DNA from: Conidiobolus incongruus B7586
Taxonomy: Eukaryota
Assembly: GCA_000697335.1 (NCBI GenBank)
Contig: JNEM01013818.1
Location: 1-43,932, forward strand
Direction of reading: 5' to 3'
DNA length: 43,932 nucleotides
In this document: in pieces, positions 950 to 42,223 of the stretch
Numbering within the stretch: position 1 is the stretch's first letter
Layout: each line of letters starts with the position of its first letter
Made by a program: the position numbers and the translations under genes
The notes under the pieces: generated by a model
The model's database searches: none
Told to the model about the DNA's origin: nothing
Seen by the model: only the letters and a program-made list of their open reading frames with translations

Positions 950-3163
950 ATGAGTCCAACACCTTCCTCTGATCGAAAAAAGCGCATTCAGCCAAAGAGA
1001 GCGGGTAGCACACCTTCCAATCACTCCAATAAATTAACTCCCAAATCTACAAAGAGAAAAATTCCTGCTAATAAAATGTCCACCACACCTACAAAAAATG
1101 CAAAATCACAATCAATTACCCATAAATCTGGAAGCAAAAGGTTTATTCAACTTTTTCAATCATAGTTTTTTATTAATCATTACCATAGAAAACAACCTTT
1201 TAAACTCATTGTTTCTAGAGATAATGCGATGTAAGCGTTTTAATTATGAAAAATTAATATTTTAACTCACTTATCAAAGTAGCTCTAAAAAGTCCCCACT
1301 TCCTATAACAAGGAAAAAATTAAAGTACTTTAATATTTAATGTATTATATTTTATACTAATTTTATTTCAGATCTAATTCAGTCATTTTATCTCCAGGGA
1401 ATTTCAGAGTATCTATTACAAAACGTGTTAAGGTGATTCCTCAGACTTCTAAATCAAATTCTCCTGAGCCTGAATTTGACACCTCGATCCTGAAAACACC
1501 CCCTCCTAAAGTTAAGGAACCAGAACCAGACCATGATAGAACCATTATACATTTAGATGGAATGCGTAGCATTGACTTTGATGAATGTATTATTGCTTTA
1601 CTGTGTTCATTGATCCTAAATACTAATATTTATTATAGTGCAACAGAAGCAGGATAAATCCATTTCATTAATTGAGAGTAAATTAAATTTAAATCTTGAA
1701 ATCGCTGAGGAACAATCAGATAGACCCAATCGTACTATTCTCAACCTTGACCACTCAATTGTGCAAAACAGGTCTCAGGTTATATCGCCTACTAAATCAC
1801 TTGGCTCAATACCATACGTTAGTTTCTCGAAACACGAAGCTCTTGAAAGTGACTTTAATTTCATTTGGCCAATTCAAGTGATACTGACTCCTATTTAGAT
1901 TTGCAAAAGGATGAGATTTTAGATGATACCATATCTAACAATAACAATAACAATGATATCAGCATTGATGGTTAGTGACTAACTTTACCTCATTCAATGA
2001 TTTCGAACTAATTTTGTTTCAGATTTAGATTTAGGTCTAGATTCAGCAAATCTGGATGCTCAAACTAAAGAACCCGATTCTCCAACATTAGCACATACTG
2101 AAATATCTCATCCATTAATCCAGGGTAATCCCACTACACAAGTTGAACAAGGTTAGTTTGAAACAGAAAATATTCTTGATGTTATATTAATAATACAATC
2201 ATAGAATCTAATAAATCCTTCACCGGATTTGATAACGTGTTTGATGAAATATCATTGGTGAATGATAAACAAAATGATATTGGCGAACCTGAAGCCACAT
2301 CGAATTTAGATCTGAGTTTTATAAACAACATCTCCTTAAATAATAACCCAATTTCAAACCCCGAGAATATCAATTTAGGTATAGTTGATATTAGAAAGAT
2401 TTCAAAATTAATTAATCTTATTTGATTTAGATGTTAATGTATTTGATACTAGTATCGATAAAGATGTTTCAAAGCCCACTGATATAGCTCTATCTGATTT
2501 GAATGCTAATCATAATACAAATGTTAATGCTATCAATAGTGAAGGTATTTATAAATTTAAATGTCCATATAAACATATTGCTTACAATTTAATTTTTTAG
2601 ACAATCAGATCTCCGATTTAACTCATCAAGCTAATTTGGCACCATTAGATTCTCTCACCATTAACTATCCCAATGCAACAATTCCAGGTATATTTCAATA
2701 GCATTTCTGCTTTATTCTACATTAAACTACAGATATATTTATAAAACTTTTAGATAATAATATACCTTCCACTAATTTATTTGCTGCTAACGGATTTTCT
2801 AATACCTCTAATCAGCCTGATACCCACCAGCATATTGAAGATCCATCCAATTCAGATAATAACGATAACTTTGTCCAGTCTCAAAGTATTCAGTAATGAC
2901 GAAAATACTTTGATATAGATTAAACTCAGAAGAGTATAACCGAATCTTATCTTCATTGTTTGTTTAATCATTTCTAGTGACAACGAAATAGATTCCGATA
3001 TTCAGGAATCGTAGATAGTTGGGAAGAGGAAACAGCTTGTTTGATCTGACAGATCCAAAGGTTTTTAAATCTTCATGTTCTTTTTCATTGCTATTAAACT
3101 TTAATAAACTATTTTTTAAGTTGATGATTTAAACGAGGGTATGGATTTTTTAAAAGGCTAAGG
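950..3163 (+). pseudogene. Multi-exon gene or pseudogene for a low-complexity S/T/P/N/D-rich protein
   Basis: ATG at 950, then a chain of short exons separated by ~50-nt GT-AG introns. There is an apparent frameshift near 1860 and stops after 2890. No recognisable domain. Coding-like sequence resumes after the mariner insertion. Confidence 0.5.
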
Positions 3164-3221: not shown

Positions 3222-4493
3222 TTACTCTACATTTTTAATAATAGGAATTTTTTGTAATTAAAAATAAATAAATATTTTAATATATGATATATAAAAATAA
3301 ATATATAATATAAATTTAATAGTTTTATTATTAATAACTTTTTGTTATATTTTTAATTAAGATTTAATACTTAAAAAATAATTTTTTTATTAGATTAAAA
3401 TTTAATGTTTTATAAACTAATTAAATTTTCTTATAGAAATTTTTTTATAAGCTAGTTTTTTAATTGCTTAAAGTAATTATAATTATATAAGTTATAATCT
3501 AAAAAATATATTAGATATAGTAGTTTTTTCTAGTTATTTTTAATTAAAAAGTTTTTTATAACTTTAAATTTATGTATTTTATAATTATTATATAAAATAT
3601 TAAGTTATTTTAAATTTATCAAAAACACTAATTAAAAATACTTTTATTTAATAAAACAATATTAAATTTATTATTAATTAATTTTCTATTAAAAATTAAA
3701 TAAAAGTAGTATATACTATTATAATAATTAATATTCATTTATTAATAAAATCTTTATTTAAAGGAATTTATAAAAAAAATTAATTTAACTTAATTTAAAA
3801 TTTTAATTTGTGTTTTAATAAAAGATTATATATAAAGATTTAAGATTTATTAATTATAATTATTTACTATAAAAGTTTAAGCTTTTAATAATATTTTAAT
3901 AAGTTTTATTTAACAATAACTATTTTAACTTTAAGTTTTAGTTAAATTATAAGGTATTTATTTTATATTTTTATTAATTTAATTTAAATTTTAATATATA
4001 TAATATACTTATAAAATTAATATTAAAGTACTTAAATAATTTTTTAATTAAAATAAAAAAGTGTTTTTTAATATATTTTTTTACTTTATTAACAATTAAA
4101 AAAATAATAATTAAAGTTAGTTTTTTAAATTTTAACAAGTTTTAAATAATTTTTCTCTTAACTTTAAAATAATATATTTAATATTAAATTGTTAATTTAA
4201 ATAATATTTTATTATTAAAAACTAATTATAAATTTTAAATAATTTTAAAAGGTTTATAGTTAAATTTTATTAATATTAAAATAAAAAACTTTTAATAATT
4301 ATTATTTAATTTAAACATAATTAAATTAAACAACTAATTTTAATAAGTTAATTTTTTAATCAAAAAAATTATTATATATATATATTTTAAAAATATATAA
4401 TTCCTTATTAACTTTATATATATTTATTTATTTTAAACTAATAATATATTTGAAAAATCAGAAATTAAAAAATTTCCCATTATTTTAAGGTAA
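3222..4493 (-). mobile_element. Mariner DNA transposon, degenerate copy 1 (~1.27 kb)
   Basis: Colinear with 27949-29266. Imperfect TIRs (TTACTCT..AATAATAGGAATTTTTT / AAAAAATTTCCCATTATTTTAAGGTAA). TA at 3220-21 and 4494-95. Extremely AT-rich. Confidence 0.9.
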
Positions 4494-4608
4494 TAAATAA
4501 TTAAACTTGAAACAAAAACAAAAAATCCAAGATAGCTATATTAATTAAAAAAAGTAAAAGTAAAAGTTTAGACTGATGACTTATTTTATAATAATTTCAA
4601 CATTTCAG

Positions 4609-5300
4609 ATTGTAGATTTAGTTATGCTAGACTAGATTCAGATGAGGAATACACTGATAAAGGATTAGATGGGAATCAATCTTTGGTTAAGAATGAGGTT
4701 GATGATTATAAACCTATTAATGAGAATCACTCCATGAATGAAAATACATTGAATGACCTTGAATCTGTTGACAAAGATAATTTAAGTGGCTTTATTGATT
4801 ATAACAAAGATGATGAAAATGATCCTGAATTTATCAATTTATCAAGTGAATTCAAATTAATTATCTATATATTGCTACTATATTTACATATTGAAAGTGG
4901 ATTTGTCTATGAAATCATTCAGTCTTTAAGTTAGCTCTTTTTACTATTATCAAATCCCTTGTGTATAACTATTTTGACTCAACATTTCTAGAAAATATTT
5001 ATTCCTCCCCATCACAAGGTTACATCCATCATTTTAAATAATATGTTAATACATTCAAGGATATGGACCGTTGTATCAAAATGTATAAGCATAGTCTGAT
5101 CCAAAGAAGTATTTGTAATTCACAGTTTTTGATAAAATTTTCGTAAATATAGAGCAATCAAATGATGTATAATTCAATTGGATAATATGTCAAGATCTCC
5201 TTATACATTTCCATCAGAGTATCATAGTGAAATGGTGTACCAAGTTTGTAATCGAGAAAACTATTTTGCTACTTAACAATTTAAACTATCTGGAAAAAAA
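4609..5300 (+). pseudogene. Degenerate coding remnant, acidic; possible continuation of the upstream gene
   Basis: CAG acceptor at 4608 opens the frame that includes ORF 4683-4934 (D/E/N-rich). Stops accumulate downstream. Confidence 0.35.
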
Positions 5301-9207: not shown

Positions 9208-11615
9208 TTAATCCACTGTAGGAGATATACTCATAAGAATTTTCAGCCATTCCAAGCCATCAAACGATCCATGTTGATTTTGAATACTTAAAGGACACGG
9301 CCCTGAAGCGAATAATAAACTAGGACACTCTCTTTGCAATTGATGATAATGAAGGTGAAATAGAGTAATCGCATCGGTTGGTACTTTAATCGGCACTGGA
9401 TTCCAATTTAACACCAAACTTTGAGAAAAATTCTGTTTCATTCTTGCAGGATTTGGATGAAAGTTATTTCGAATTTGATCCACTTGATAGGGAAGTAAAA
9501 CTCCAAGCTGTAGAAATAAATCAGAAAGACTGTGTAATATGCTAAGTAAGGTAGAAACCATGGGTGGAATTAACTGATGACAGTGTGGGAAGCCATTATA
9601 GAGTCTTTGGAGTAGGTATGGCATTCTCATAAAGAGGAGTAAAGGTGGTTCAATTTTGTCAGGATGATCTGGATCATAGCTTGTAACCTTGGAAAGTCCA
9701 ATAAAACATTTAGAAAATTGATCCAGAGTAGTGTCAGTTTCAGAGGTAGTGAATTCTCTAGGAGAGAGTAAATTCAATTTTACTTGATGAAGAGATCTAT
9801 TTTGTTGAATAAATCGGATATAATCTGATGGATCCTCTTCTTCACAGATTAAATTCATCTCCCACCAGATATAGTTATTCATAAAAGTTGTAGTTAAAGG
9901 AAGTTTTGAGGTAATTTGAGATTCTGTATCAATAGGCTGACTTTGAGGAACAAGAGCTGAAACAAGAAAAGGCTGCTTGTCAGGATCGGTAAGATTTTCA
10001 GCAGATTCTAGCAAATCCAACATATTATTAGTATTAGGCATTGAAGCTTGAATAAAATCTCGTTTGAATATGTCCCACCCGATAAAATCAGCTTCTGTCG
10101 GAGTAGGTTTGGTAACAGGTGAATCCGACTGTTTATCTTGAAAGATCTGTAATAGGCAGTGTATTGTAAGGTAGTCACCATCTCTTTTAATCATATATTG
10201 ATGCATGAATATATCTTCATCGTTATATGAAGCTTCATCTTGAAACAAATAAAAAGGTTGAGTATAATCAATTAGTTGTTTCAATATATCGTGGCCATAA
10301 GCTTCATCTAAGTCTCTATAGCAAATCCTATGAATACACTGCGTTAAAGGCAAATTGGGATCAAAGTTGGGATTTGATCCTAAATACATATTAATAGATC
10401 TGGATTTAAGATATTTAGGATCTGACCAATGCACTTGGTGAGTAAGATGTGGTGCATTCAATGCTCTACAATAATTAAATCTAGAGAGTACAGTGAGATC
10501 TTTAGATTCCAATTCGTTGTCAATTTTTAATCGTTTTTCAACTATTTCTGATGTAGGTGAACTAGGTTCCTTAATAAGATTGATGCTGTAAAGGTCCCAA
10601 TGAGACATTGCTAATTGCTGAATTTGAGATGGTGCGTCCAGATAACTCATAAAAGTAGTTTCTATCACTCCAAAGCCACACTCCAAGAACTCTTTTTTTA
10701 GTTGAGGAAGTTCGAAATCTTTTTTATATGGACAACAGTTAATGCAAACAGCCTGTATTTCCAATTTAGGTGTATCCCTATTGAATATAATTAGATCAAA
10801 TTAATATACATTCTTATTTAATCAAATACGCTTTCATTTGACCCAAATATTGATTGATTAAATAGTGGTTTAAAAGGACCGTTAGATCTGGTACAAATAT
10901 TGGGGAACTAAAAAATCAGATTAATAAGCGTTATAATGTGTTTGAATATTCGCTATATTTCAAAATACCTAGTATCTTCGACCATTTCTAAACCTTTGAG
11001 TTCTCTGTCTATTTGTTCTTTCGATGCAAGCCTTAAGTATACGATTCTTAATAATTTTAAAGGCTTTCCGTTTTCTTGAATCAAATCAGCTAATAATGAG
11101 CTAATAATATTGTGGAGTAATAAAGGTTGAGGAGAGTTCGAAGGGGTTTTTTCAACGCTTCCCAATGATATAACCTGATTTGCCTTTGAAAACAGTTTAA
11201 TTTATCAACAAAAGAAAAGAAATAAATAAGGTTACTAGAGAATAAGAATTTGGATCTTGCCAATTTATGAAGTTATGATATCCAACATGAAACAGAGCCA
11301 ACTAAAAGTTAATTAGTTGAAATGTTGATATAAAAATGATAAATAAAAATAAAGATTCAAGCTAAGGGAAAAATGTTACCTCACCTTACTCCAACTTGGG
11401 TCAGTAATTTCACTTGTAATTCTAAAATATTCAAGTGATGCTTTTTGTAATTTGGAATAGGGTGGTAAAGTTAAATGAATTTGATTAGCGGTATCATTTT
11501 GTTTAGCAACAGCATTTAACTCATCAATTTGTAAATGCTCTTCAAAAGCTCTAGGACTTCCTTTATCTAATATGATGACAGTACCAACAGTGCTATTTTC
11601 TTGAGGCAATATCAT
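9208..11615 (-). CDS. Probable Integrator subunit 13 / Asunder-like protein, 5 exons, ~719 aa
   Basis: Exons 11615-11385, 11301-11236, 11183-10969, 10907-10830 and 10777-9208 splice in frame. Colinear motifs TVIILD, SLEYFRI, HWDLYS and HQYMIKRDGDYLTIHCL resemble INTS13 TVFVVD, SMEYCRI, HFDLAS and SHMLSSHGGEIFLHVL (recalled from memory). Confidence 0.65.
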
Positions 11616-17219: not shown

Positions 17220-18365
17220 TTACAGATTTTTTGTAACATCCAATAGTTTTGATTCTTCCTCTTGGCTAAGCTCAGATTGAGCTTTGGATTTTTTAGTTTT
17301 GATAGTTTCATCTGAGAGGGAAGGCAAATTTTGGTTTGCAATCATATCGAGAATAGGTGTTGAGATCATGGGGAACAAGTGAAATTTATCTGGATCATCC
17401 ATACTTGCTACTTGTGCATTAAATTGGTCTAAACACTATGGTATTAGTCAACATTGGAAGAAGAATATTAATCCCTTACCATTTACTTGGACTATTTTGG
17501 TATAAATAATTCCACATGCTTTTTGAAAAGTAGGATCTAGACATAACGAGATCAGAGTGACGAGACCAGAAATAGCAATGGATAGACCTTTCCAAAGAGA
17601 GAGTCGATTATCTAACCAACCTGCATGTTTAGCTATGAAATAAATCAAAGGTCCTAGCTGTGTTAATAATGGAGCAATTGGATATAATAAACTTCTTTTA
17701 ATCAACTTTCTGATTCGATTCTTAGCTTCAACAGTCATTTTAGAAATTTCATCGTTGATTTTGTCCAATTGATCTGGATACCTATCGACCTTTTGCCAAA
17801 TTACAATGCAAATAATGGGGCAGTAGACTAGAGAAAGCACTTTTAAACTTCCTATTAAACACCACACTAAAGCTACCGAATAAGGTGAGTCTGAGTCTTT
17901 TATTAAGCATGACTCAGTTTGTGGATCATAGCCAACACTCTGCGTAGCAATGAAAGGTGCAGTTGAAAAAGCCGATATACCAATCAAAGCTATCCAGTAA
18001 TATATTTCTACCCATTTATTAGGCTCAATGTGATGCAATACGATTAATTGTAAATTAAAAGCAATGCCAATGCTAGCTAAACAATAAAGATTATCAAAGA
18101 AGATGATGAGAGAGCTTAACGCTTTGCACCAATTGTTATCCTCCTGTGCTTGTGGTAACAAAAAATTTAGTAAATGAATCACTACATCTGCAATACCTAT
18201 TGCTATGAGAAGTCTTAGAGAGACTCGATCAGTTAATTTTGGGAAATAGATCCTTAGGCCGAATAAACTGATTAATACGGTCACAGCAGACACCATTCCC
18301 AATAAATTAATTAGATTAATTACATTATTATCATCTTTTTGATATCTTCCCTGTTCAACTTCCAT
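17220..18365 (-). CDS. 7-transmembrane GPCR-like protein (Git3/cAMP-receptor-like), 2 exons
   Basis: Seven hydrophobic segments, DRVSLRL after TM1, Cys before TM3 and in ECL2, RSLLYP in TM6, LDPTF after TM7. Intron 17479-17429 joins it in frame to ORF 17220-17402. Confidence 0.85.
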
Positions 18366-19510
18366 CCCTTTTAATTAAAATACTATTGATATAAACGATA
18401 TGAAATATTACTTAAAATGATTATGCTTTTATATACGATCAATGATGTTAGTAAAAACTACTGATCAAAGAGAAAGAATTAAATCAGCATAAAAATCTCT
18501 AATCATAATACATTAGATCATTTTATAAAATATTCTAAATAAATTTAGAAAAAATTTCAAACTTCGGAATTATGAAACATCATAACTATCATAATGAATA
18601 GTATTACTGATAAATGATGGTCATATTAAAATCTTATAATCTTCACTTCAATTATATCATTCATGTAACGAAATCATAATTTGAAACAATTATATACCGC
18701 ATTCGTGTTTCGATTTGAGTTTTGAATTCAGTAAAATTAATAATTTATATTGTTTAATTCTATCTCAATTACCACCTTGAATCAACCAATCAAACTAGAG
18801 TATTCAAATTTAACGAATTTCAAATAGCAAAATTGGGTTAAAACTATAATTATTTTGCTATTTGTTTGGTCAAGCAATATGATATATTTGGAAGATTTGT
18901 CATTCTGAAAATTTGGATTACTATTGTATGTAACTTGAATAAAGGTATACTGCAATGATATACTTCATTATTCTTAATCATAATAAAAATTGATACAAAT
19001 GAACAAATTTAGTTATTTTTTAAAATATTCATGATACTACTGAGTTACATAAAATTATTATAGATACTCAAAAAAATAAATATCAAAATTGAAATATATT
19101 AATTTCATTTATATATATATATATATGACAATTGATTAGAAATATATAAAAATATCAAGAATAGTAAAATTTATATGAATCGATTAATAATAAATTTTAT
19201 TAATGAATATTGGAAAGTATTTATTATTTAGAAATTAAATAAGGTTAGTAGCAGAAAAGTGTAAGCAAATTTAGAAGGATAAAAAAGTATATGGATAGGT
19301 CACATGTTAACTATATACACAAAAGTACAAATAATAGAATGATCACTGCGGGTAGCGATATAAAGCTATTCATAGAAAGTGTTTGATTAAAAAAAAATAA
19401 TATATGTATGGCTTTGGTTTATCCATAGTCCCTCAGCTGTTATATACAGTAAATGTCATTTAGAAATCATTAAAAATACAGCCACAATACGTGATGTATA
19501 AAACAACCGG

Positions 19511-21807: not shown

Positions 21808-23307
21808 CTAATCGGTCCACTCTAGCAACGCTTCATGTATGGAATTTAGGGCTAGAATTCCCATATCAGATTGTATCACACATGAAATATTGATTTCTGA
21901 CGAACCCTGTGAAATCATTTCAATATTGATATTAGCTTTAGCTAAAGTGGCAAACATTTGTGAAGCAATGCCAACCATGTTCTTCATCTGCTGTCCTACC
22001 AAGCTCAAAATGCTGAGATTGGGAATGACGTTGATAGTTCCATATTGTTTTAAAGCTTCAACTGCGTCCAATAGTTCAGGATCATCAGGAGGGAGTGCAA
22101 CGGCCATGGACACGTGAACTTCGCTGGTAGAGATTAAATCGATAACAATGTTGTGTTGATCCAGAATGCTAAAGATATTGGCAAAGAAGTCATGTGACAC
22201 TGATTTCCTATTTGAATGGACATTTAACACTGTAACCTTGTCTTTGAGGGTGACAGCTGTGGGGTGTCTGCGACTGAGATCTGAGCTGTAGCCATTTTGA
22301 AGGAAGAGGGCTTTTGAGGTAGGTGATATGTGCTCATCGAGTGGGTTGGGAATGATGATAGATCCCTGACCAGAGGGGTTTTGTACATTTTTGATTCTAA
22401 TGGGAATGCGGGATCTGATGACTTGATCCATGGTGAATGGATGAATTACTTCAGATCCATAATATGTTAATTCAGCCGCTTCTTCGGGTGTGATGACAGG
22501 CAATAGACGAGCTTTTTTGACTTTGCGGGGGTCAGCAGTGAAGATACCATCAACTTCCTTCCAGATTTGGAGTTCCTTTGCCTTAAGTCCAACTGCAACA
22601 AGAGCTGAAGTCAAATCCGTATAGCCACGTCCAATACTTTTGAGTAAACTTCCAGGGACAGGGCCAAAAAAACCAGTAATCACTGGTATTTTTTCCTCGC
22701 ACTTCAATACTTCTTCAGCAAATTCTTTAGCTAGATAGTCGTAGAAGGGTTGTGTCAAGTTGGAAGGAGTGAATCGATCATTCTTAATCACAGAGTCTAA
22801 GTTGACTACCTTTGCAGGGATTCCAGAGTCTTCTAAAACAGCAGCAATGATTCTACATGATAACAATTCTCCAGATCCAATAATCACATCTTGCGACCTC
22901 GGTGATACTTCCTTGATAGTAGCAAGTGCTGTCATGAATTGGATCAATTGATCGCAATCGCTTTTGAGTTCAGATTCCAATTTTGAAAGAATGGAAGTAT
23001 TTTTGATATATACTTTAGCTGCTGAGATATGATCGGATAAAATATCCTGTATGGTCTGTTTAAAGTGATGGTCAGGTTGTAGAACTTGTTGTGAAGCTAA
23101 AATTAATCGACTCGTAGTTCCTTTAGCTTTGACATCAGTGCTTCTAGCAGAACATACAACGGCAACACGATTATTGATAAGGGCTTCCCTGACAATAGTA
23201 TAACATATAGAGGGTAAAAATTTACCAATACTAGTACCTCCAAATTTCTGAATAACCCAAGGTAAGTGAGGCTGGTTTGTCAATGCCTGAGAACAAGGAG
23301 ACACCAT
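21808..23307 (-). CDS. HOM3: Aspartate kinase, intronless
   Basis: QKFGGTS, VVCSAR, GRGYTDLT, IWKEVDGIFTADPR, ELTYYGSEVIHP, and two ACT domains (ISTSEVHVS, ISQGSSEINIS). Confidence 0.97.
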   Translation of the reverse strand: MVSPCSQALTNQPHLPWVIQKFGGTSIGKFLPSICYTIVREALINNRVAVVCSARSTDVKAKGTTSRLILASQQVLQPDHHFKQTIQDILSDHISAAKVYIKNTSILSKLESELKSDCDQLIQFMTALATIKEVSPRSQDVIIGSGELLSCRIIAAVLEDSGIPAKVVNLDSVIKNDRFTPSNLTQPFYDYLAKEFAEEVLKCEEKIPVITGFFGPVPGSLLKSIGRGYTDLTSALVAVGLKAKELQIWKEVDGIFTADPRKVKKARLLPVITPEEAAELTYYGSEVIHPFTMDQVIRSRIPIRIKNVQNPSGQGSIIIPNPLDEHISPTSKALFLQNGYSSDLSRRHPTAVTLKDKVTVLNVHSNRKSVSHDFFANIFSILDQHNIVIDLISTSEVHVSMAVALPPDDPELLDAVEALKQYGTINVIPNLSILSLVGQQMKNMVGIASQMFATLAKANINIEMISQGSSEINISCVIQSDMGILALNSIHEALLEWTD

Positions 23308-27948: not shown

Positions 27949-29266
27949 TTACTCTGAATTTTTAATAATGGGAATTTTTTGCAATTAAAAATAAATAAAC
28001 ATTTGAATATATGATATATAAAAATAAATATATAATATAAATTTAATAGTTTCTTTTATTATTAATAACTTTTTGCTATACTTTTAACAAAGATCTAATA
28101 TCTAAAAAACAGTTCTTTTTATTAAAAACTGAAATTTGATGTTTTATAAACCAATTAAATTTTCTTGCAAAAATTTTCTTTCTTATAAGCTGGTTTTTTA
28201 ATTGCCTAAAGTAATTATAATCACATAGGTTATAATCAAAGGAATATACTAGATGTGGTAGTTTTTTCTAGTTATTTTTAATTAGAAAGTTTTTTACAGT
28301 TTTAAATTTATGTATTTTGTAATTATCATGCAAAATAATAAGTTTTTTCAAATTATATTGAGAACACCAATTAAAAATACTTTTATTTAAAAAAACAATA
28401 TATAATATATTATTAATTGATTTTTTTTTAAGAATTAAATAAGAATAACATATACTATTATAATTTATTATAATAATTAACATTCACTTATTAACAAAAT
28501 GTTTATTTAAAGGGATTTATAGAAGGGGTTAATTTAATTTAATCTAGCATTTTGATTTGTGTTTTAATAAAGGATTATATATAAAAATCTAAGATTCATC
28601 AATTGTAATTATTTGCTGTAAAAGTTTAAGCTTCTAGTAATATTTTAATAAGTTTTATTTAACAATAGCTACTCTAGTTTTTTTTTAAGCTTTAGTTAAA
28701 TTATAAAGTATCTATTTTATATTTTTATTTATTAATTTTAGTTTAAACTTTAAAATATATAAAATACTTATAAAACTAATATTAAAGTACTTAGATAATT
28801 CTCTAGCTGAAATAAAAAGGTGCTTTTTAATATATTTTTTCACTCTATTTACAATTAAAAAAGTAATAGTTAAAGTTAGTTTTTTAGATTTTAACAGATT
28901 TTAAATAGTTTCTCTTTTAGTTTTAAAGTAATTTACCTAGCAATAAATTGTTAATTTAGATAATACTTTATTATTAAAAGTTGCTTGTAAATTTTAAATA
29001 ATTTTAGAGGGTTTATAGTTAAGTTTTACTAATACTAAAATAAAAAACTTTTGATAATTACTATTTAGTTTAAACATAATTAAATTAAACAACCAATTTT
29101 AAAAAGTTAATTTTTTAATTAAAAAAACTAATATATATATATATATATATATATTAAAAATATATAATTTCCTATTAACTTTATATATATTTATTTATTT
29201 CAAACTAATAATATATTTGAAAAATCAGAAATTAAAAAATTTCCTATTATTTTAAATTCAAGGTAA
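27949..29266 (-). mobile_element. Mariner DD34D transposon, best-preserved copy 2 (1318 bp)
   Basis: ~33-bp imperfect TIRs (TTACTCTGAATTTTTAATAATGGGAATTTTTT), TA on both flanks. Minus-strand relic motifs K*ILYNLT (WVPHEL), IITIDES*I, ILHDN and LPHLVYSFDYNLCD (HPPYSPDLAPSD). 34 residues lie between the second and third Asp. Confidence 0.95.
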
Positions 29267-29429
29267 TAAATAAAAAATTAAATCCTATAAACTATTAATG
29301 TTTATAAGGTTAAAATAGTACATAAACTCTAGATTATATTGTTTTAATAAAATTTTTATAATGAAAAAATTTAGTATAAACTTCAGGAATATCAAAACTA
29401 CTATATGAAGAACTAAAAATATTAAGTCT

Positions 29430-31150
29430 AATTAAAACAGCCTGCTTGTTATTCACCTTGACAAGCATTCTAATGTCTTATACCAGTGCCAAGCTGCTAT
29501 TTGTGCAAATATTCATGAGATTGGAAATATTTCTGTTGATGTATGTTGAAGTTTAGAATATTCAATTAGAGGATTTGTAATTTGATTGCTCTAAAGTAGT
29601 TGCTATTCATTAGGTTATATCCCAACCCAATGAATCAGTATCACTTCAGAAAAAAAGTAATGGTAAATTTTTATTTTCTGATTCTTCAAACATATTATTA
29701 GTTTTATATTTTATATTTTATATAAATTAAATGAGTGAATATATTGTTTTAAGCTGATTATATATACATTCATATAAAATAATTTGAAATTTTTTTATTC
29801 TAATATAATTAAAACTTAACCAAAAACCTTTTAAAATCATTTAAAATATATCAACAGCTTATAAAGATAATGTTTCATTTAAAACTATTAAATATTGCTA
29901 GATTTACTATTTAAAATTTAATAAAATCTAGAAAGCTAATTTTTATAATTACTCTTTCAATAATTGATAAACAAAATATATTAAAAAGCACCCTTTTAAT
30001 TTAATTAAATAGTTATTAAAATATTAAAATTAATTATACAAGTATGATATATATTAAAGCTTAAACTTGGTTAATTAATGATATTATTGAATAAGTATTT
30101 TATTATTTAACAAAAGTTTAGAAAAATATTAGAATATTTATAGCTAAATAAATAAAATTTAATAAAAAACTTAAACTTTTATATTAAATTATTATTTTAA
30201 TAAATTATAAATGTTTTATATAATATTCTATTAAAAATTAAATCAGAATATTAAGTTAAAATAATCTTTCTAAATTTTAAAAAACTATTATTTTATTTAT
30301 AAACAAATATAAAATATTTTATATAAATATTATAATATATATTTTTATTTTGTTCTTGAGAGAAAATTAAACAATAACAAGTTTTATATTTCGTTAAAAT
30401 AATTTTTAAATAGCATTCTTATTCTAATTTAAGAATATTCATTATTTTACATAATAGTTGAAAAATACATAAATTTACATTTATAATAGATATTTTATAT
30501 AAAAATTAATTAAAGCAGCTATTATATTTAGTATATTTACTAGATTACAACTTATGCAACTTTAATTAAAATTATTTTAGATTATTAAAAATATGCTGAT
30601 AAAGAAAATTTTCATATATAAATTTAATTAATTTATAAAATCTCAAATTTTAATCTTTAATAAAGGAATTGTTTTATATGTGTTAAAAGCTTTCCAAAAG
30701 TATGGCAAAAAGTTATCAATAATAAAAAAGAGCATATGCTTTATTTTATGTATTTCATATTAGAATTTATTTTTATTTTTAATTTTAAAAATGTATTATT
30801 ATTTAATTTCTAGAGTAATACTTACATTTCTGAATTTAGCTTTTAATTCAAATAAAATCAAATTGAAAATATCCAAGTCCAATTGTCATTATTTGGAAAA
30901 ATATTAATCAACATTATATCATGAAAAGTTTTGTCACAAGTTATCTGAAACATGGGATGCAATACCTGCTCCTCAACAAAATAAACAATCTCATTGTTAT
31001 TAGGTTTCAAAGTTCTCTTATCTTAATTCAGACTGTCACCAATGCCACTCAAAAATCGTCTTTATTTGGAATATTACAATCAGCAGCTAACAAAATCTAT
31101 TCTTCAGGAATTCTTACCCCAGTGAAATGTTGATTACTTTGATAAAATAA
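29430..31150 (+). pseudogene. Unknown gene remnant interrupted by mariner copy 3
   Basis: Removing 29641-30820 restores one frame VISQPNESV|LTFLNLAF..Y*STLYHEKFCHKLSETWDAIPAP.. with scattered TAA/TAG. An upstream GTATGT..TAG intron is present. Confidence 0.4.
29641..30818 (+). mobile_element. Mariner transposon, more divergent copy 3, inverted relative to copy 2 (~1.18 kb)
   Basis: Colinear with the reverse complement of copy 2 (TTTCTGATTCTTCAAACATATTATTAG; TATTAAAAAGCACC; YLLDYNLCN relic of YSPDYNPCD). Ends AGAGTAA|TA, with TA at 29639-40. Confidence 0.85.
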
Positions 31151-31739
31151 ACTTAGAACAGTTATATGATCGGGATTTTCTACAGGACTTCTTCCCATCG
31201 CCTCAACGCTTGCAGAAATAGTTAAATGGTCAATGAAAATAATAATATTCCCTTCAGCATTTTTATCAACAATAATTTACCAATAATAATTACAACAATC
31301 TACTTTTTATACTATTTTTAAACTCAGCTAATATTATAGTATCAATAATTGATTTAATCAAATACTGGCAAAAAAATTGAGCACTTTCATGTTTTTAAAG
31401 CTCTGAAATTATTAATATAAACTCAATTTAGCCAAATATCTGTCAATTTTAAAATTTTCAAATTATATAATGATAATTAAATCATAATATTTTAATTGAA
31501 GTACCAAAATTAATTTAGTATATATTAGTTATGTCAATTTAAGCCAAAATTATTAACCTAATTCAATCTAATTAATAGTAATCATAATAATATGAGTATT
31601 GTGAATTAAATCAATTATAGACATTTAATAAACTATTAATTATTCATTTACAATAATATAATTAGAAAAATTATTCAAAATATAATATTAATATGTAAAA
31701 CTAAGTTATTGAATTAATTAGTAAGTTAGTTATATTAAA

Positions 31740-33257
31740 TTAGTGTTTAACGGTTACAATGCGGCATTTAGGAGGAAGAGGAGGATTACTGGAGGAGCTA
31801 ACGGGAGAGGAAGTATTTGGTACAACATAAGGTCCAGTAGGGATTGCTGTAGGGCCAGGGGTACTGGATTCTGAAACAAGGTAAGGACCAGTGCTGATCT
31901 TTGTAGTAGATGAGATGTTGGATGATCCTGAAGGTGGTACATTGGAGATGATGGTAATTGACAGGTGATGACTAGTAGGAGATGGTGTAGTTGATGAGAT
32001 GGTAGATGATCCTGAAGGAACTACACCTGAAACAGTGGTGGATGATTGAGGATAGCCATTAGAAGACAAGGCGGTTGATGAAACAATAGTTGATGTGCCT
32101 GATGGCACTACATGTGGAGTAGAGGTTGATGATTGGGGATAACTAGCAGAAGATTTGGTCGTTGGAGCAATGCTTAATGAACTTGATGGGATCAAACTCG
32201 ATATAATGCTAGACTTGCTAGTGGTGGATGATTGGGGATAACCTGTTATAGAAGAGCTAGTGGTAGACTTCTTAGTTGATGGATAAATAGAATTTGATGT
32301 AGTAGTAGGTGATGAAATTTGCGCTAGAGTTGTGGTAGAAATATTTGTAGTTGTAGAAGTCAACGTAGTGAAATGGCTAGGAGATTGGTTACTAGTTGTA
32401 ACAGTGGTAGTGGTAGTAGTAGAAGTAGTAGTAATTGTAGTGGTCACAGCAACTGAAGGATTTTTACTAATAATATCATTAATAAAATCCCTATATAGTG
32501 CGACTTTAGTATAGACCGACGGTAGATCTTTAGTTCCACATCTGGTGCCAAAGCTTACAGTACCAATCAAATAGACGTCATTAGGACTTTGGTGATAAAA
32601 GAGTGGGCCTCCAGAATCTCCCATACAAGGATTCTTCAATCTAGAACCAGCGCAGAGCTGCTTGTCTTTCAAAACTTCACCGGAGCCCAGCCATCTCTTA
32701 TAGCATTCTTGGAAGTTAGCAACCTTAAGATCAGCCTTCTGCAATTGAACAGCTTTTTTGGAATCGACACTGGTGATACCATATCCCATAGCTAGAGCTT
32801 CTGTACCTTCCTTACTAAAGGTACCATCATCCAATTTGACTGCAGAAGGGTTGAATGGGACTGTTCTGCCAGGATCCTGAGGTTTAATCTTAATTAACAA
32901 AATATCATCATAATTGGGATTCTTAGAATCGAAGCCAGGGTGAGCTATCTGATCCTCCGCTACATAAATAATTTCATTATTCTTGTCTGACAAAGTACTT
33001 GTATCTTTGGTGCCACTATTAGCGAATACTATCTTCAAATCGCCTTGATTAGTCGCCTTACAGTGAGCAGCAGTCAATATAAAGTTCTCTGCAATTCTGG
33101 TGCCTGTACAATCCTGTTTGCCGTTGGTGAATATATTGGCTACATAGTTATAGTCATCAGGGTTTTGAACGTCAGTACCTCCAATAATTTCTGGAGCCGC
33201 TGCTACCATTTTGAAGGTAGTCAAAGCAATCACTAATGACTGAATGATTGGATTCAT
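31740..33257 (-). CDS. Secreted S1A (trypsin-fold) serine protease with a long Ser/Thr-rich tail
   Basis: Signal peptide, IIGG mature N-terminus, LTAAHC, DDILL, GDSGGP. About 235 aa of S/T/P-rich tail. Intronless. Confidence 0.95.
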   Translation of the reverse strand: MNPIIQSLVIALTTFKMVAAAPEIIGGTDVQNPDDYNYVANIFTNGKQDCTGTRIAENFILTAAHCKATNQGDLKIVFANSGTKDTSTLSDKNNEIIYVAEDQIAHPGFDSKNPNYDDILLIKIKPQDPGRTVPFNPSAVKLDDGTFSKEGTEALAMGYGITSVDSKKAVQLQKADLKVANFQECYKRWLGSGEVLKDKQLCAGSRLKNPCMGDSGGPLFYHQSPNDVYLIGTVSFGTRCGTKDLPSVYTKVALYRDFINDIISKNPSVAVTTTITTTSTTTTTTVTTSNQSPSHFTTLTSTTTNISTTTLAQISSPTTTSNSIYPSTKKSTTSSSITGYPQSSTTSKSSIISSLIPSSSLSIAPTTKSSASYPQSSTSTPHVVPSGTSTIVSSTALSSNGYPQSSTTVSGVVPSGSSTISSTTPSPTSHHLSITIISNVPPSGSSNISSTTKISTGPYLVSESSTPGPTAIPTGPYVVPNTSSPVSSSSNPPLPPKCRIVTVKH

Positions 33258-38401: not shown

Positions 38402-40966
38402 TTAAAAGCTCCCTCCGCCAACTTTACCACCAAGTGATCCAGATCCCAAAGGTCCATTACTCTGCTGCAGAGGAGGATTTGGAAGAGGTGAGGGATTGCC
38501 AGACTGATTCAAAATTGGGTTAGGGTTAGGACCAGTAAAGTTGTTTAGTTGATTATTAGGAATTCCCTGATTGAAAGGGTTATTGGCACCGATATTTCCA
38601 ATAGAGTTTCCAGGTTGTTGCCAGTTCAAATTAGTGTTAGGGTTAAAATTTAAAGTAGGGTTATTGCTGATGAGTTGGTTTAAATTACCAGGTGCTCCTC
38701 CTCCCAAGTTCATGTTTTGATTGAAGTTGGGTAATTGGTGAGGGTTGGGGTTATTAAAATTGCCAAGATTATTGGAAGGATTGAAGCCGGTTCCAAAGTT
38801 TTGAGGGTTTAAAAAGTTATTAGGGTTTTGAAATTGATTACCTTGAGCGTTGGGATTTCCTCCAAAGCTACTGTTATTAGCGTTGTTGTTGCCCAACCAT
38901 CCAGAAATAGTGGCAAGACTTGTACCAGATCCTGAAATATTATTGAAGTTCTGATTGAAGCTGGGAGTGAATGGATTTGTACCAAAATTATTCAAGTTGG
39001 GGTTAGTACCACCAGGGTTCTGGCTAAAACTGGGGTTCAAAGTATTGGGGTTATTGTAAAAGTTAGGGTTCATGAAGTTTGATGGTTCTTGACCTCCAAA
39101 ATTGAATTGGTTACCAGCATTAAACTGTCCAAATGAAGTATTATTGCTAGGGTTCAAAGCGTTGAAGCGTCCTTGGTTGTGTTGATCATAGTTTTTAACA
39201 CTTGATACTCCTTTGATTGACCTGTGTTCGTCTTTGGAAGATGATCCAAATCCAAATAATGAGGAAGATTGACGCTGTAATTCCTCTAACTGAGTGACTT
39301 GGTCACGGTATAATTCTTTCTGAGCATCAGCAGCGGCTTTATCTACAATTGAAATGGCTGGTTCTTCCTGGAAGCTCTGATTACCTAATGAGGAGATAAG
39401 TCTTTGGATATACTGCTGCTGAGTGGGGAGATTTTCTCCAATGGGACGACCAGTCTTTTGGGAGTGCTTCTGACGAAGAGCAGTTGCAAACGATACAATA
39501 CTGCTATCTAAAAGTTGTTGAGCAATAGGGTCTTTGGTGACATTGCTAGAATTCAAAGGGTTGAGAGTAAGACTCTGCCAGACATATCCCACATCGGCGA
39601 TTTGTTGGACATAGTTAGCCAATTCAACATGATATTGGTTAGTAGAGAGATCAACACTCTGGAGAGGAGGATAGCTGTATCCGAGAAGGACATGGGCGTG
39701 ATCCTTCTTGACAGAAACAGCGAATGCGTCAGCCAAATTGACATCTGGTGCATCGCTCTGAAGAGTGACAACATCAGCATAGGGAGCAAAGTGACGAGCG
39801 CGAGAGATGGCGGCTTCGAGTGTATTGGCATACATATAGTATCCTTCTTGAGAGCGAGGAAGATTCCAATCCCAGAATACCTTATCCAAACCAAGCTGAG
39901 CGGCCAAATCTTTAGCATGATCCAAAGATGTGTTTCTAGTATTTTCCAACCATTGTTCAACCTCTTTAGCAGCTTGTCCGGGTGACTGACCAGCCTTGAG
40001 GCGAATAGCTTGGGCAATAGCGTCACGGTAAGTTAATACATTAGCACTATTCATCCATGAGTTGCGAATAAAGTTCAATTGATCAGGAGTACTAGCACCA
40101 GAAGCTTGAGCTTCGCGAAGAACTTCAGCTAGAGGTCTAGTTGGGACCGTGGCACCCAAAATGTAAGGATGATCACGAGTGTCAAGGTTGCTAGCAACAT
40201 AACCAGCTTGGAGAGATGACAATTTGGCAAAAATCACGGTTTCAGTATCCATAATATCGGATTGGGCACGGAGAGCAACCAAGCGATTAATATGCTGACC
40301 AACAGGATAAAGAACTTTGATATTGGCTTGATTCAAAATGGAGGAATAAGTTTGCTGAGCATCATCCAATTGAATACCGGCAGCACCACGTTCGATCAAT
40401 AGACGTGAGAGACGCATCAAAGAGGGAATATTGGAACCCACAAGGTCAGCGTCAACTACGATAGGACGGTAGAAGTCAACCGGCTCGGGAAGTTCCGATT
40501 CGAATCCAATCTCACTTCTCAAGCGGTGACGTAGCTCAACCTGACGACGGTCAAACCACACCTGGGAGCGGAGAATTTGATCGACTTTGCGGGGTAAAGT
40601 ACTTAATGGGGTTGCTGGAGAGGGAATAGGACTGCTAGGATCACCTTGCGTTTCAACAATCACCTGTTGATTGGAAATGTAAGACAATTCCAAATTCTGC
40701 GTACTGGTAGTGAGGACTTGGGAAGGGTTCCAAGTGTCAAAAGCAACAGTTCCAAGACCCTGGGCTTGGATTCTATTTAAAATCGTCCAAAGTTTTTTGC
40801 TCAAAGGAGCTCCAGCATGCTCAAGTTTAAGTGTGCCTCTCTTGGACACAATAATATCGGCGTTGTAAGGACGACGCGTATGAGTGAAACGATCACTTCT
40901 CCATTTTTGTTCAAGTTGATATACTTGGTTTTTGAAATTATTGCCATCATCTGAAATAAACGACAT
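38402..40966 (-). CDS. Isocitrate lyase-like pseudoenzyme with a C-terminal N/F/G/P/Q low-complexity domain, 854 aa
   Basis: ICL-fold motifs RFTHTRRPY..IVSKRG, RPIVVDAD, ERGAAGI, HINRLVALRAQSDIM, RDHPYILG, PRSQEGYY, FAPYAD. The catalytic KKCGH motif is absent. Intronless. Confidence 0.9.
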   Translation of the reverse strand: MSFISDDGNNFKNQVYQLEQKWRSDRFTHTRRPYNADIIVSKRGTLKLEHAGAPLSKKLWTILNRIQAQGLGTVAFDTWNPSQVLTTSTQNLELSYISNQQVIVETQGDPSSPIPSPATPLSTLPRKVDQILRSQVWFDRRQVELRHRLRSEIGFESELPEPVDFYRPIVVDADLVGSNIPSLMRLSRLLIERGAAGIQLDDAQQTYSSILNQANIKVLYPVGQHINRLVALRAQSDIMDTETVIFAKLSSLQAGYVASNLDTRDHPYILGATVPTRPLAEVLREAQASGASTPDQLNFIRNSWMNSANVLTYRDAIAQAIRLKAGQSPGQAAKEVEQWLENTRNTSLDHAKDLAAQLGLDKVFWDWNLPRSQEGYYMYANTLEAAISRARHFAPYADVVTLQSDAPDVNLADAFAVSVKKDHAHVLLGYSYPPLQSVDLSTNQYHVELANYVQQIADVGYVWQSLTLNPLNSSNVTKDPIAQQLLDSSIVSFATALRQKHSQKTGRPIGENLPTQQQYIQRLISSLGNQSFQEEPAISIVDKAAADAQKELYRDQVTQLEELQRQSSSLFGFGSSSKDEHRSIKGVSSVKNYDQHNQGRFNALNPSNNTSFGQFNAGNQFNFGGQEPSNFMNPNFYNNPNTLNPSFSQNPGGTNPNLNNFGTNPFTPSFNQNFNNISGSGTSLATISGWLGNNNANNSSFGGNPNAQGNQFQNPNNFLNPQNFGTGFNPSNNLGNFNNPNPHQLPNFNQNMNLGGGAPGNLNQLISNNPTLNFNPNTNLNWQQPGNSIGNIGANNPFNQGIPNNQLNNFTGPNPNPILNQSGNPSPLPNPPLQQSNGPLGSGSLGGKVGGGSF

Positions 40967-42223
40967 GATTCAAATTGTTGACTATATATTTAAAGAATAA
41001 ATAATAAGAATAATTGATTTTTCAATGGTTGACTTTGAATGAATCAAACAAAAAATATTGGAATGAATCAGGGATAGCAAGAATGACGTGACAGGTATTT
41101 ATATTCATCACTAATTCTAATTATTGACGTAAATATCAATCCAATTTAAAAAATTATTCAATCATTTTAGCAAAGCCACTTCGGTCACTCAATATCCCTT
41201 TATCATTTATACATTTTCTAAATCAATCCAATTTTTCTATTAATGGGAATAAAATTAAAGAACCAATCAGAGTGGATCATATTATCCCAATTAAATATCT
41301 AAAATTTTAGTATGATAAAATATGAATTTTAAAATCAAGTGATATATTGTTAAAAATGTATCATATTTCTATCAAATATTAAAATCTATAAATGTATAAT
41401 TAGAATAAAAAATTCTTATACAAAATAATTTAATAATTAAAATTATCCCAATATTAATTGCTTAACGATCTAAAATTTAATTAAATTATAAACTAATTAA
41501 TATTTTCATAATCTCCTTTTAAAAAAAGTATTTGATTATTTATTATATTAATTTTTATCATGATAGTTCATTTTCTTATACATTTTATTATATTTTAATT
41601 TGGACTTATATTAAAATTTGTACCATCAATTATTTAATATTGTTTTATTCAATAATTATTTTTATATAAACTATGCTGTAAAACTCCGTCGTTTACAGTT
41701 CCATAGGTTTCAGAGTGGTTCGAAATGATGTTGGGATTAGCATCGTTGGAAGTCAATTTTAAACAAGTAAAAATTGTAAACTCAGAGAGATCTACCTTTA
41801 TTTCTACAAGGGATTAGATGTATTTATATTATAGAAAATGCAACTAAAATATTAATTGCATTTATCAAAGCATCATCTATTAACCTGAACATGCCTAATT
41901 TTATGACTCATATACAACAAACTAAACGTATAAGTTTAAAATTTGATAGAAAATATTTATATTTTTTAATTTTATTTAATTTTATAATATTTGATATATT
42001 ATTATATTAAAATTATATTAATCAAAAATTTTATAGTTAAAAATACTGAAAATATTGTAAATTGAAATTTTTTATTATGTTAAATTGCAATAATATTCTC
42101 AGTAGATTGAATTGATATTAATATTAATATTAAAGCCAAATTAAAAAGACGAAAAAATAAAAAAAATGATAATAAAAATTTATGTATATTAAATATTTTA
42201 GGATGTAATGAACTGCTAGATAA

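What the first reader, a model, noticed from the sequence alone, without database searches (positions are those of the whole stretch)
27949..29266. RIP-like C>T/G>A hypermutation of repeats in an apparently non-Dikarya fungus
Seen: most damage to conserved transposase motifs is explained by transitions toward A/T. Examples are TGG>TAG at three expected Trp codons, CAA>TAA, CCT>CTT/TTT and CCA>CTA. Copy 2 TCACATAGGT..GGAATATACTAGATGTGG reads TTATATAAGT..AAAATATATTAGATATAG in copy 1, with CpA and CpT contexts on both strands. I saw no CpG in copies 1 or 2. Length and colinearity are largely kept, and neighbouring single-copy pseudogene DNA (30950-31210) retains G/C and CpG. Known: RIP is characterised in Ascomycota, with RIP-like patterns in some Basidiomycota. 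Inference: a repeat-targeted mutator or methylation-deamination defence acts in this lineage.
Basis: partly seen in the sequence, partly recalled or inferred. Interest (0 to 1): 0.75.

Follow-up and report, generated by a model that had tools for sequence, protein, structure and literature searches.

The report
RIP-like transposon mutation in Conidiobolus fungus
In a Conidiobolus-like fungus, far outside the group where the mutational defence RIP is known, copies of a mariner transposon have lost up to two thirds of their C:G pairs almost only by C-to-T changes while a dead host gene next door has not, which likely reflects a methyltransferase-driven defence that mutates repeats.

Summary
Confirmed and strengthened. 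27949-29266 is one complete, dead DD34D mariner element (TA target duplications, ~30-bp inverted repeats). Two more copies lie at 3222-4493 and 29641-30818, and thousands of contigs of the family lay on 336 bp of it. The host is Conidiobolus-like (Entomophthorales), not an ascomycete. Copy 1 has T/A at 113 of 195 C/G sites of copy 2, against 4 other changes. Family-wide, 62 of 66 variable places are transitions. The copies hold 8-15% GC, below the 21.6% of intergenic DNA. A trypsin pseudogene broken by copy 3 keeps 29% GC and an ordinary damage spectrum (7 of 20 transition-only versus 14 of 16; p=0.002). Targets are CpA and CpT, less CpC, on both strands. One correction: the family lacked CpG already, so CpG absence is inherited. 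Plain AT decay is rejected. Likely mechanism: a RID-independent, Dim-2-like methyltransferase mutator plus DNMT1 (0.5); true homology-sensing RIP stays open (0.27). Earlier hints in Entomophthorales rested on dinucleotide indices, and a 2025 kingdom-wide screen called all 8 Zoopagomycota RIP-free. Limits: one family, one sample, no methylome, enzymes known only from C. coronatus.

The parts
27949..29266 (-). Copy 2: full-length dead mariner (DD34D) DNA transposon, 1318 bp, GC 0.15, terminal inverted repeats, flanked by TA
28034..29086 (-). Transposase frame of copy 2, no frameshift, 15 stops (7 TAG, 7 TAA, 1 TGA); catalytic D163, D254, D289 still read Asp
3222..4493 (-). Copy 1: same family, 84% identical to copy 2, GC 0.08, most heavily mutated; 56 of 85 family C/G sites lost, all by transition
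29641..30818 (+). Copy 3: inverted relative to copy 2, more diverged (about 70%, many A<->T changes and deletions), GC 0.13, inserted at a TA inside a trypsin gene
29328..29638 (-). 3' part of a trypsin-like protease pseudogene between copies 2 and 3; control DNA, GC about 0.30, no CpG, normal CpA
30821..31246 (-).
31743..33257 (-). Intact trypsin paralogue (PF00089), GC 0.40 in the protease domain; reference for the pseudogene and a second taxon marker
21811..23307 (-). Aspartate kinase gene used to place the host near Conidiobolus coronatus (83% identity)

Best explanation
Copies of a high-copy mariner transposon in a Conidiobolus-like fungus have been destroyed by C:G-to-T:A changes confined to the repeats, likely because a Dim-2-like cytosine methyltransferase methylates them at CpA, CpT and CpC and the methylcytosines are then fixed as T at a very high rate, without the RIP enzyme RID. 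Shown here: repeat-restricted, transition-only, two-strand, non-CpG loss of C:G that drives GC below the local neutral level and kills the transposase without frameshifts (copy 2). Inferred: (1) silenced repeats are marked, probably through heterochromatin or RNAi; (2) DNMT1 methylates CpG in and a few hundred bases around them, which would explain the CpG-free family and the CpG-poor flanks; (3) the Dim-2-like enzyme adds non-CpG methylation inside the repeat; (4) 5mC becomes T by enzyme-promoted deamination or failed repair, as in the Dim2-dependent mitotic mutator of Zymoseptoria tritici. Life stage and direct homology sensing are unknown.
For: Spectrum: 113 of 195 vs 4 of 195 (Fisher p=2e-38); 62 of 66 and 61 of 67 variable places in the family are transitions. 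In copy 1, about 1.1 C>T hits per C:G site against 3-4 private transversions in 243 A/T sites, 65-90 fold. GC 0.080/0.152/0.130 vs intergenic 0.216, lowest 1250-bp window elsewhere 0.18. Control pseudogene 7 of 20 damaged conserved codons transition-only, vs 14 of 16, 17 of 21 and 17 of 22 in the copies. Family-polarised context in copy 1: CpA 30 of 36, CpT 20 of 32, CpC 6 of 17. Flank CpG 7 observed vs 19.9 expected (p=0.0008) with CpA not depleted at most flanks. C. coronatus has DNMT1 (KXN74494), UHRF1 and HELLS, with DNMT4/RID and DNMT5 not detected, and KXN73869 sits at the base of the Dim-2 clade (99.9/97) in PMC10538959's tree. Dim2 drives mitotic C>T in repeats in Z. tritici, and N. 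crassa DIM-2 prefers CpT (PMC8016269). Phycomyces has DIM2 and DNMT1 and methylates TEs in CG and CHH (PMC11258239).
Against: No methylation data and no enzyme gene from this organism were seen (no genome held). The same paper's table lists Dim2 as not detected in C. coronatus, in conflict with its tree. Z. tritici Dim2 mutates >98% at CpA, whereas here CpA and CpT are both hit. Amselem 2015 found CpA/CpT signatures only in RID-bearing ascomycetes. Non-CpG loss is fairly sharply bounded at the element (GC 0.30 directly beside the inner end of copy 3) and the element ends look spared (6 of 21 vs 102 of 172, p=0.01, cut-offs chosen after looking), which fits homology-directed targeting better than spreading heterochromatin. 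Reviews describe 5mC as scarce in Zoopagomycota. One family, one sample.
Confidence: 0.5

Rival explanations
1. True RIP, or a convergent equivalent: duplicated DNA is recognised by direct homology at the sexual or resting-spore stage and mutated in bursts by a dedicated methyltransferase-like enzyme.
For: CpA+CpT signature as in Magnaporthe, Botrytis and Sclerotinia. Damage largely bounded by the repeat, ends apparently spared. Copy 1 carries about 3 times more C>T hits than copy 2 but not more transversions (5 vs 10 private, 11 unresolved, of 26; p=0.0005, or 0.025 away from gaps). C. coronatus has 0 repeats of >=1 kb at 95-100% identity but 555 at 80-95% (PMC12543289 supplement). Index-based RIP signal in Zoophthora radicans, 24% of windows.
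Against: [quoted passage not shown] No strand-polarised tracts (52 runs vs 52.7 expected), though repeated rounds would erase them. The transversion clock is unreliable: at least one 'private' transversion is a subfamily polymorphism, and in the family-checked region copy 1 has 3-4 and copy 2 none, which fits age. The family reached high copy number. C. coronatus scored no_rip, and its lack of identical repeats may reflect a fragmented assembly.
Confidence: 0.27
2. Passive spontaneous deamination of densely methylated cytosines over a long time, with no mutagenic enzyme activity or repair defect.
For: Copy differences may follow insertion age. CpG loss in flanks points to methylation. Methyl-CpG in mammals mutates some tens of times faster than total transversions (recalled, not from a call), within a few fold of the ratio seen here.
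Against: It needs near-complete methylation of CpA and CpT. The ratio here (65-90 fold) is higher than the recalled value, and A:T>G:C changes are almost absent (1 in 243 sites in copy 1). Mutability depends strongly on the 5' base (C 17 of 17, A 11 of 26).
Confidence: 0.12
3. A cytidine deaminase of AID/APOBEC type edits transposon DNA.
For: 5'-pyrimidine preference (5'C 17 of 17, 5'T 17 of 24, 5'G 11 of 18, 5'A 11 of 26 in copy 1; 57 of 80 vs 56 of 115, p=0.002) resembles CC/TC motifs of APOBEC3 enzymes (recalled).
Against: Both strands are hit equally with no tracts. A cut-and-paste element has no long single-stranded intermediate (established knowledge). No such enzyme was looked for or seen.
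Confidence: 0.07
4. Plain AT-biased decay of an AT-rich element in an AT-rich genome.
For: The genome is AT-rich (intergenic GC 0.216, fourfold-site GC 0.22-0.32) and the family ancestor was only about 26% GC in the region checked (86 of 336).
Against: Neutral decay should approach the intergenic level, not fall to 0.08 (binomial p=5e-39). C>A and C>G changes are nearly absent. The pseudogene, dead at least since copy 3 inserted, keeps GC 0.29 and a mixed spectrum that matches a simulated AT-biased null (35% vs 37%).
Confidence: 0.04

Closest known systems
Repeat-induced point mutation (RIP; RID-dependent, Pezizomycotina), especially the CpA+CpT type of Magnaporthe, Botrytis and Sclerotinia (PMC4352252)
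   Same: Repeat-restricted C:G>T:A on both strands, CpA and CpT preferred, length kept, stops from TGG>TAG; composite RIP index >0 over copies 1 and 2.
   Different: Host is Entomophthorales; no RID detected in the nearest annotated relative; strong 5'-C effect; high copy number; stage and homology sensing untested.
Dim2-dependent mitotic C>T mutator of Zymoseptoria tritici (PMC8016269)
   Same: Non-CpG C>T changes concentrated in repeats; a Dim-2-like protein exists in C. coronatus by one published tree.
   Different: Z. tritici is >98% CpA and an ascomycete that also has RID; here CpT and CpC are hit too, and dependence on the enzyme is not shown.
CpG-type methylation-deamination of TEs in Basidiomycota (Microbotryum, rusts; DNMT1/Masc2-like; PMC4352252)
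   Same: CpG missing from the family and depleted in flanks; DNMT1 present in the relative.
   Different: All scored losses here are at non-CpG sites.
Index-based RIP signal in Entomophthoraceae (Stajich et al. 2024, PMC11105155)
   Same: Same order; same suggestion of RIP outside Dikarya.
   Different: That work used dinucleotide indices without copy alignments, polarity or a neutral control, and its named positives are not Conidiobolus.
mariner/DD34D (Mos1-like) transposons
   Same: About 1.3 kb, TA duplication, ~30-bp inverted repeats, ~350-aa transposase, D-D34-D triad, PHxxYSPD-type motif; Mos1 E=4e-12.
   Different: No close intact relative found (best 20-36% identity, unnamed records).

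Membership tests
RIP | C:G>T:A transitions dominate differences between repeat copies | tested here: met
RIP | Specific to repeated DNA, not single-copy neutral DNA | tested here: met
   one family and one pseudogene control
RIP | CpA (or CpA+CpT) preference | tested here: met
   copy 1: CpA 30 of 36, CpT 20 of 32, CpC 6 of 17; CpA and CpT equal when copy 2 is the reference
RIP | RID/Masc1 methyltransferase present and required | not testable with these tools
   no genome held; not detected in C. coronatus in a published table, which argues against
RIP | Acts premeiotically, in bursts | tested here: inconclusive
   transversion clock and runs test give mixed results; stage needs crosses
RIP | Triggered by homology itself (any new duplication) | not testable with these tools
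   needs an engineered or recent gene duplication; bounded damage is only suggestive
Dim-2-dependent mitotic mutator | Dim-2-class methyltransferase in the genome | tested here: inconclusive
   relative's KXN73869 is in the Dim-2 clade in the tree but absent from the same paper's table; this genome not searchable
Dim-2-dependent mitotic mutator | Non-CpG 5mC on repeats and C>T gain during vegetative growth | not testable with these tools
   no methylome or mutation-accumulation data
CpG methylation-deamination (Basidiomycota type) | Changes confined to CpG | tested here: not met
   0 of 86 family C/G sites are CpG, yet 56 of 85 are lost in copy 1
mariner DD34D | DD34D triad in a Mos1-like transposase | tested here: met
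   D163, D254, D289; homologues carry PF01359, most also PF17906 or other HTH hits
mariner DD34D | Short terminal inverted repeats and TA target duplication | tested here: met
   all three copies
Non-Dikarya host (Entomophthorales) | Neighbouring genes closest to Conidiobolus | tested here: met
   two genes, best-hit evidence, no tree built

The most novel reading that the evidence does not exclude
An early-diverging fungus runs a homology-sensing, RID-free form of RIP, so mutational genome defence either predates the Dikarya or evolved twice, with a Dim-2-like or unknown enzyme as the mutator.
Probability: 0.27. Interest if true: 0.9.

Novelty: new variant of a known kind. Interest (0 to 1): 0.72.

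Why it matters
Whether repeat-directed C-to-T mutagenesis exists outside Dikarya is contested. Stajich et al. 2024 suggested it from indices with 'major caveats'. Badet and Croll 2025 found it unique to ascomycetes and scored all 8 Zoopagomycota, C. coronatus included, as no_rip. This locus gives alignment-level, polarised evidence with an adjacent neutral control in a culturable genus whose annotated member lacks RID. It would separate the mutator outcome from RID, suggest that k-mer screens miss the process in AT-rich genomes, and may bear on why Conidiobolus genomes stay near 40 Mb while E. muscae reached 1 Gb. It makes the origin of RIP testable with one methylome and one mutation-accumulation experiment.

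Tried and rejected
No whole genome is held, so other repeat families and methyltransferase genes could not be searched. The word-indexed protein search with the damaged transposase found nothing; the full HMMER search found only distant intact mariners, unnamed, so origin by transfer from insects could not be tested. No RNA holder was listed. Two runs of another organism laid 0 contigs, which is no evidence either way. The four DNA holders are one sample, probably the window's own source, so they add copies but not an independent organism. The runs test for strand-polarised tracts was negative. The transversion clock was inconclusive. Assembly artefact rejected: 462 and 342 contigs match copy 2 at 99% or more, and the same spectrum appears across thousands of contigs. 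CpG loss as the driver rejected. Three look-ups of earlier scan findings returned nothing. Bewick 2019 and Gladyshev 2017 are not held. A six-frame Pfam survey of intergenic relics was not obtained.

Full report
What is there. A self-comparison of the window finds three copies of one element: 3222-4493, 27949-29266 (the finding) and, inverted, 29641-30818. Each is flanked by TA. Copies 2 and 3 match their inverted ends at 26 and 23 of 32 bases; copy 1 has a deletion in one end. The minus strand of copy 2 is one unbroken frame of 351 codons with 15 stops (7 TAG, 7 TAA, 1 TGA). It matches Mos1 transposase (E=4e-12) and 580 proteins at E<=0.001 in the HMMER search, of which 150 were listed. Catalytic aspartates 163, 254 and 289 give DD34D. 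It is a mariner. In two runs of one sample, 6226 and 4787 contigs lay on 336 bp of it, so the family is multi-copy; copy number was not measured.

Host. Aspartate kinase is 83% identical to Conidiobolus coronatus, with the next hit at 63%. The trypsin's best hit is C. coronatus at 59%, on a contig of the same length, 88,288 bp. NCBI places the genus in Entomophthorales. The species was not determined. It is not an ascomycete.

Spectrum. Copy 2 against copy 1: 133 transitions and 26 transversions in 1265 columns; 113 of 195 copy-2 C/G read T/A in copy 1, 55 on C and 58 on G; only 4 C/G sites changed otherwise. A second aligner gave 108 of 193. Family-wide, 62 of 66 (run X4) and 61 of 67 (run X2) variable places are transitions (40 of 69 rows were shown). 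At 24 listed places copy 2 has A/T where the family has G/C, in 19 of them as the majority in X2; this fixes the direction. On the 85-86 family C/G sites, copy 1 lost 56 (all transitions), copy 2 lost 24 (counted from those listed transition rows) and copy 3 has 58 at A/T (45 by transition; it is more diverged). Copy 1 differs at 8 of 243 A/T sites, 3-4 of them private transversions, so C>T runs 65-90 times faster per site. Depth-weighted family shares favour copies that resemble copy 2 and understate the damage.

Controls. Intergenic DNA (10.9 kb) has GC 0.216 and the lowest 1250-bp window outside the elements 0.18; the copies have 0.080, 0.152 and 0.130. Neutral AT bias cannot push DNA below its own equilibrium. 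Copy 3 sits inside a trypsin gene, whose remains keep GC 0.29 against 0.40 in the intact paralogue. At conserved codons, damage explained by C>T/G>A alone is 14 of 16 in copy 2, 17 of 21 in copy 1 and 17 of 22 in copy 3, using 39 columns from the 102 of 150 homologues of 300-400 aa. In the pseudogene it is 7 of 20 (39 of 50 conserved columns covered, defined from only 6 sequences; Fisher p=0.002), close to my simulated AT-biased null of 37%, whose rates I assumed. Some pseudogene changes may predate its death or come from frameshifted alignment, which would inflate the contrast. The composite RIP index is positive in 5 of 86 windows: 4 on copies 1 and 2, one marginal (0.01) elsewhere, none on copy 3.

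Context. With family-polarised neighbours, copy 1 lost CpA 30 of 36, CpT 20 of 32 and CpC 6 of 17; by 5' base, C 17 of 17, T 17 of 24, G 11 of 18 and A 11 of 26. No family C/G site in the region is a CpG (about 4 expected, P=0.016), so the active element was probably CpG-free already. The two longest CpG-free gaps of the window cover the elements. Five flanks hold 7 CpG against 19.9 expected, though the left flank of copy 1 shows no deficit. CpA is not depleted in most flanks; GC is low in the first 100 bp beside some ends but 0.30 beside the inner end of copy 3. I read this as two layers: CpG methylation that spreads into flanks, and non-CpG mutation bounded by the repeat. That reading is inference.

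Timing. There are no strand-polarised tracts. Transversions polarised with copy 3 are 5 private to copy 1, 10 to copy 2 and 11 unresolved, which does not follow the 3:1 excess of C>T in copy 1. But some are subfamily variants, and in the family-checked region the counts fit age, so this test is inconclusive.

Mechanism. No enzyme gene of this organism could be examined. For C. coronatus, the supplements of PMC10538959 list DNMT1, UHRF1 and HELLS, with Dim2, DNMT4 and DNMT5 not detected, yet their tree puts KXN73869 at the base of the Dim-2 clade at 99.9/97 (supplements searched, part 1 of 3 of the tree file read). Dim2 promotes mitotic C>T at CpA in repeats of Z. tritici (PMC8016269, passages). 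I therefore commit to a RID-independent, Dim-2-like methyltransferase mutator working beside DNMT1 (0.5). Rivals: homology-sensing RIP (0.27), passive deamination of dense 5mC (0.12), a cytidine deaminase (0.07), plain decay (0.04). That a repeat-targeted process of some kind acts here I put at about 0.95.

What is in print. Stajich 2024 (PMC11105155; passages and supplement search) reports index-based RIP in Z. radicans (24.2%) and 2-6% in three others, and says RIP has otherwise been seen only in Dikarya. Badet and Croll 2025 (PMC12543289; passages and supplements) find the signature unique to ascomycetes and score 8 of 8 Zoopagomycota no_rip; three large tables could not be read. Amselem 2015 (PMC4352252, passages) ties CpA/CpT signatures to RID-bearing ascomycetes. 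Chytrids showed no RIP (PMC6572847, passages). RID is documented only in Pezizomycotina, and Conidiobolus genomes carry Tc1/mariner elements in loads that differ by species (PMC5751038, passages). Passages were also read in PMC12387763, PMC11258239, PMC7862722 and PMC13297926. Nine searches showed no alignment-based report for Conidiobolus. The library lacks most subscription papers, Bewick 2019 among them, so absence from print is not proven. The mammalian methyl-CpG rate and the APOBEC motifs are recalled, not from a call.

Verdict. It works like RIP in outcome. It cannot be filed as RIP, because RID, the premeiotic stage and homology triggering are untested and RID appears absent in the nearest annotated relative. 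It is a new variant of a known kind, bearing on a contested question, and limited by one family and one sample. Interest 0.72.

Noticed in passing
window 27949-29266, 3222-4493, 29641-30818: The element is a true mariner (DD34D), a family best known from animals (recalled), in an insect-associated fungal lineage; no close intact relative was found, so transfer from an arthropod host is possible but untested.
   Followed up: partly
window 29328-31246 and 31743-33257: Tandem trypsin-like protease pair: one intact with a long Ser/Thr-rich tail, one pseudogene interrupted by copy 3, with copy 2 just downstream.
   Followed up: partly
window 1000-3100 and 4496-5070: GC-richer (about 0.25-0.31), coding-like but broken DNA on both sides of copy 1, possibly another pseudogene or element that copy 1 interrupted; the right side has no CpG for about 575 bp.
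   Followed up: no
window 38405-40969 (-): Isocitrate-lyase-family protein (PF00463, residues 16-505) with a 300-residue Asn/Gln/Gly/Phe/Pro-rich low-complexity C-terminal extension.
   Followed up: no
window 9208-10800 (-): 530-codon open frame with no Pfam match.
   Followed up: no
window 17448-18374 (-): 308-aa multi-pass membrane protein that looks like a GPCR by eye; only a weak Pfam hit (PF24357, below cut-off).
   Followed up: no
PMC10538959 supplements, C. coronatus KXN73869: A short, divergent methyltransferase placed at the base of the Dim-2 clade in the tree but missing from the paper's presence table; a candidate mutator.
   Followed up: partly
window 29130-29155: A TA microsatellite has expanded in copy 2 relative to copy 1, upstream of the transposase frame.
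   Followed up: no
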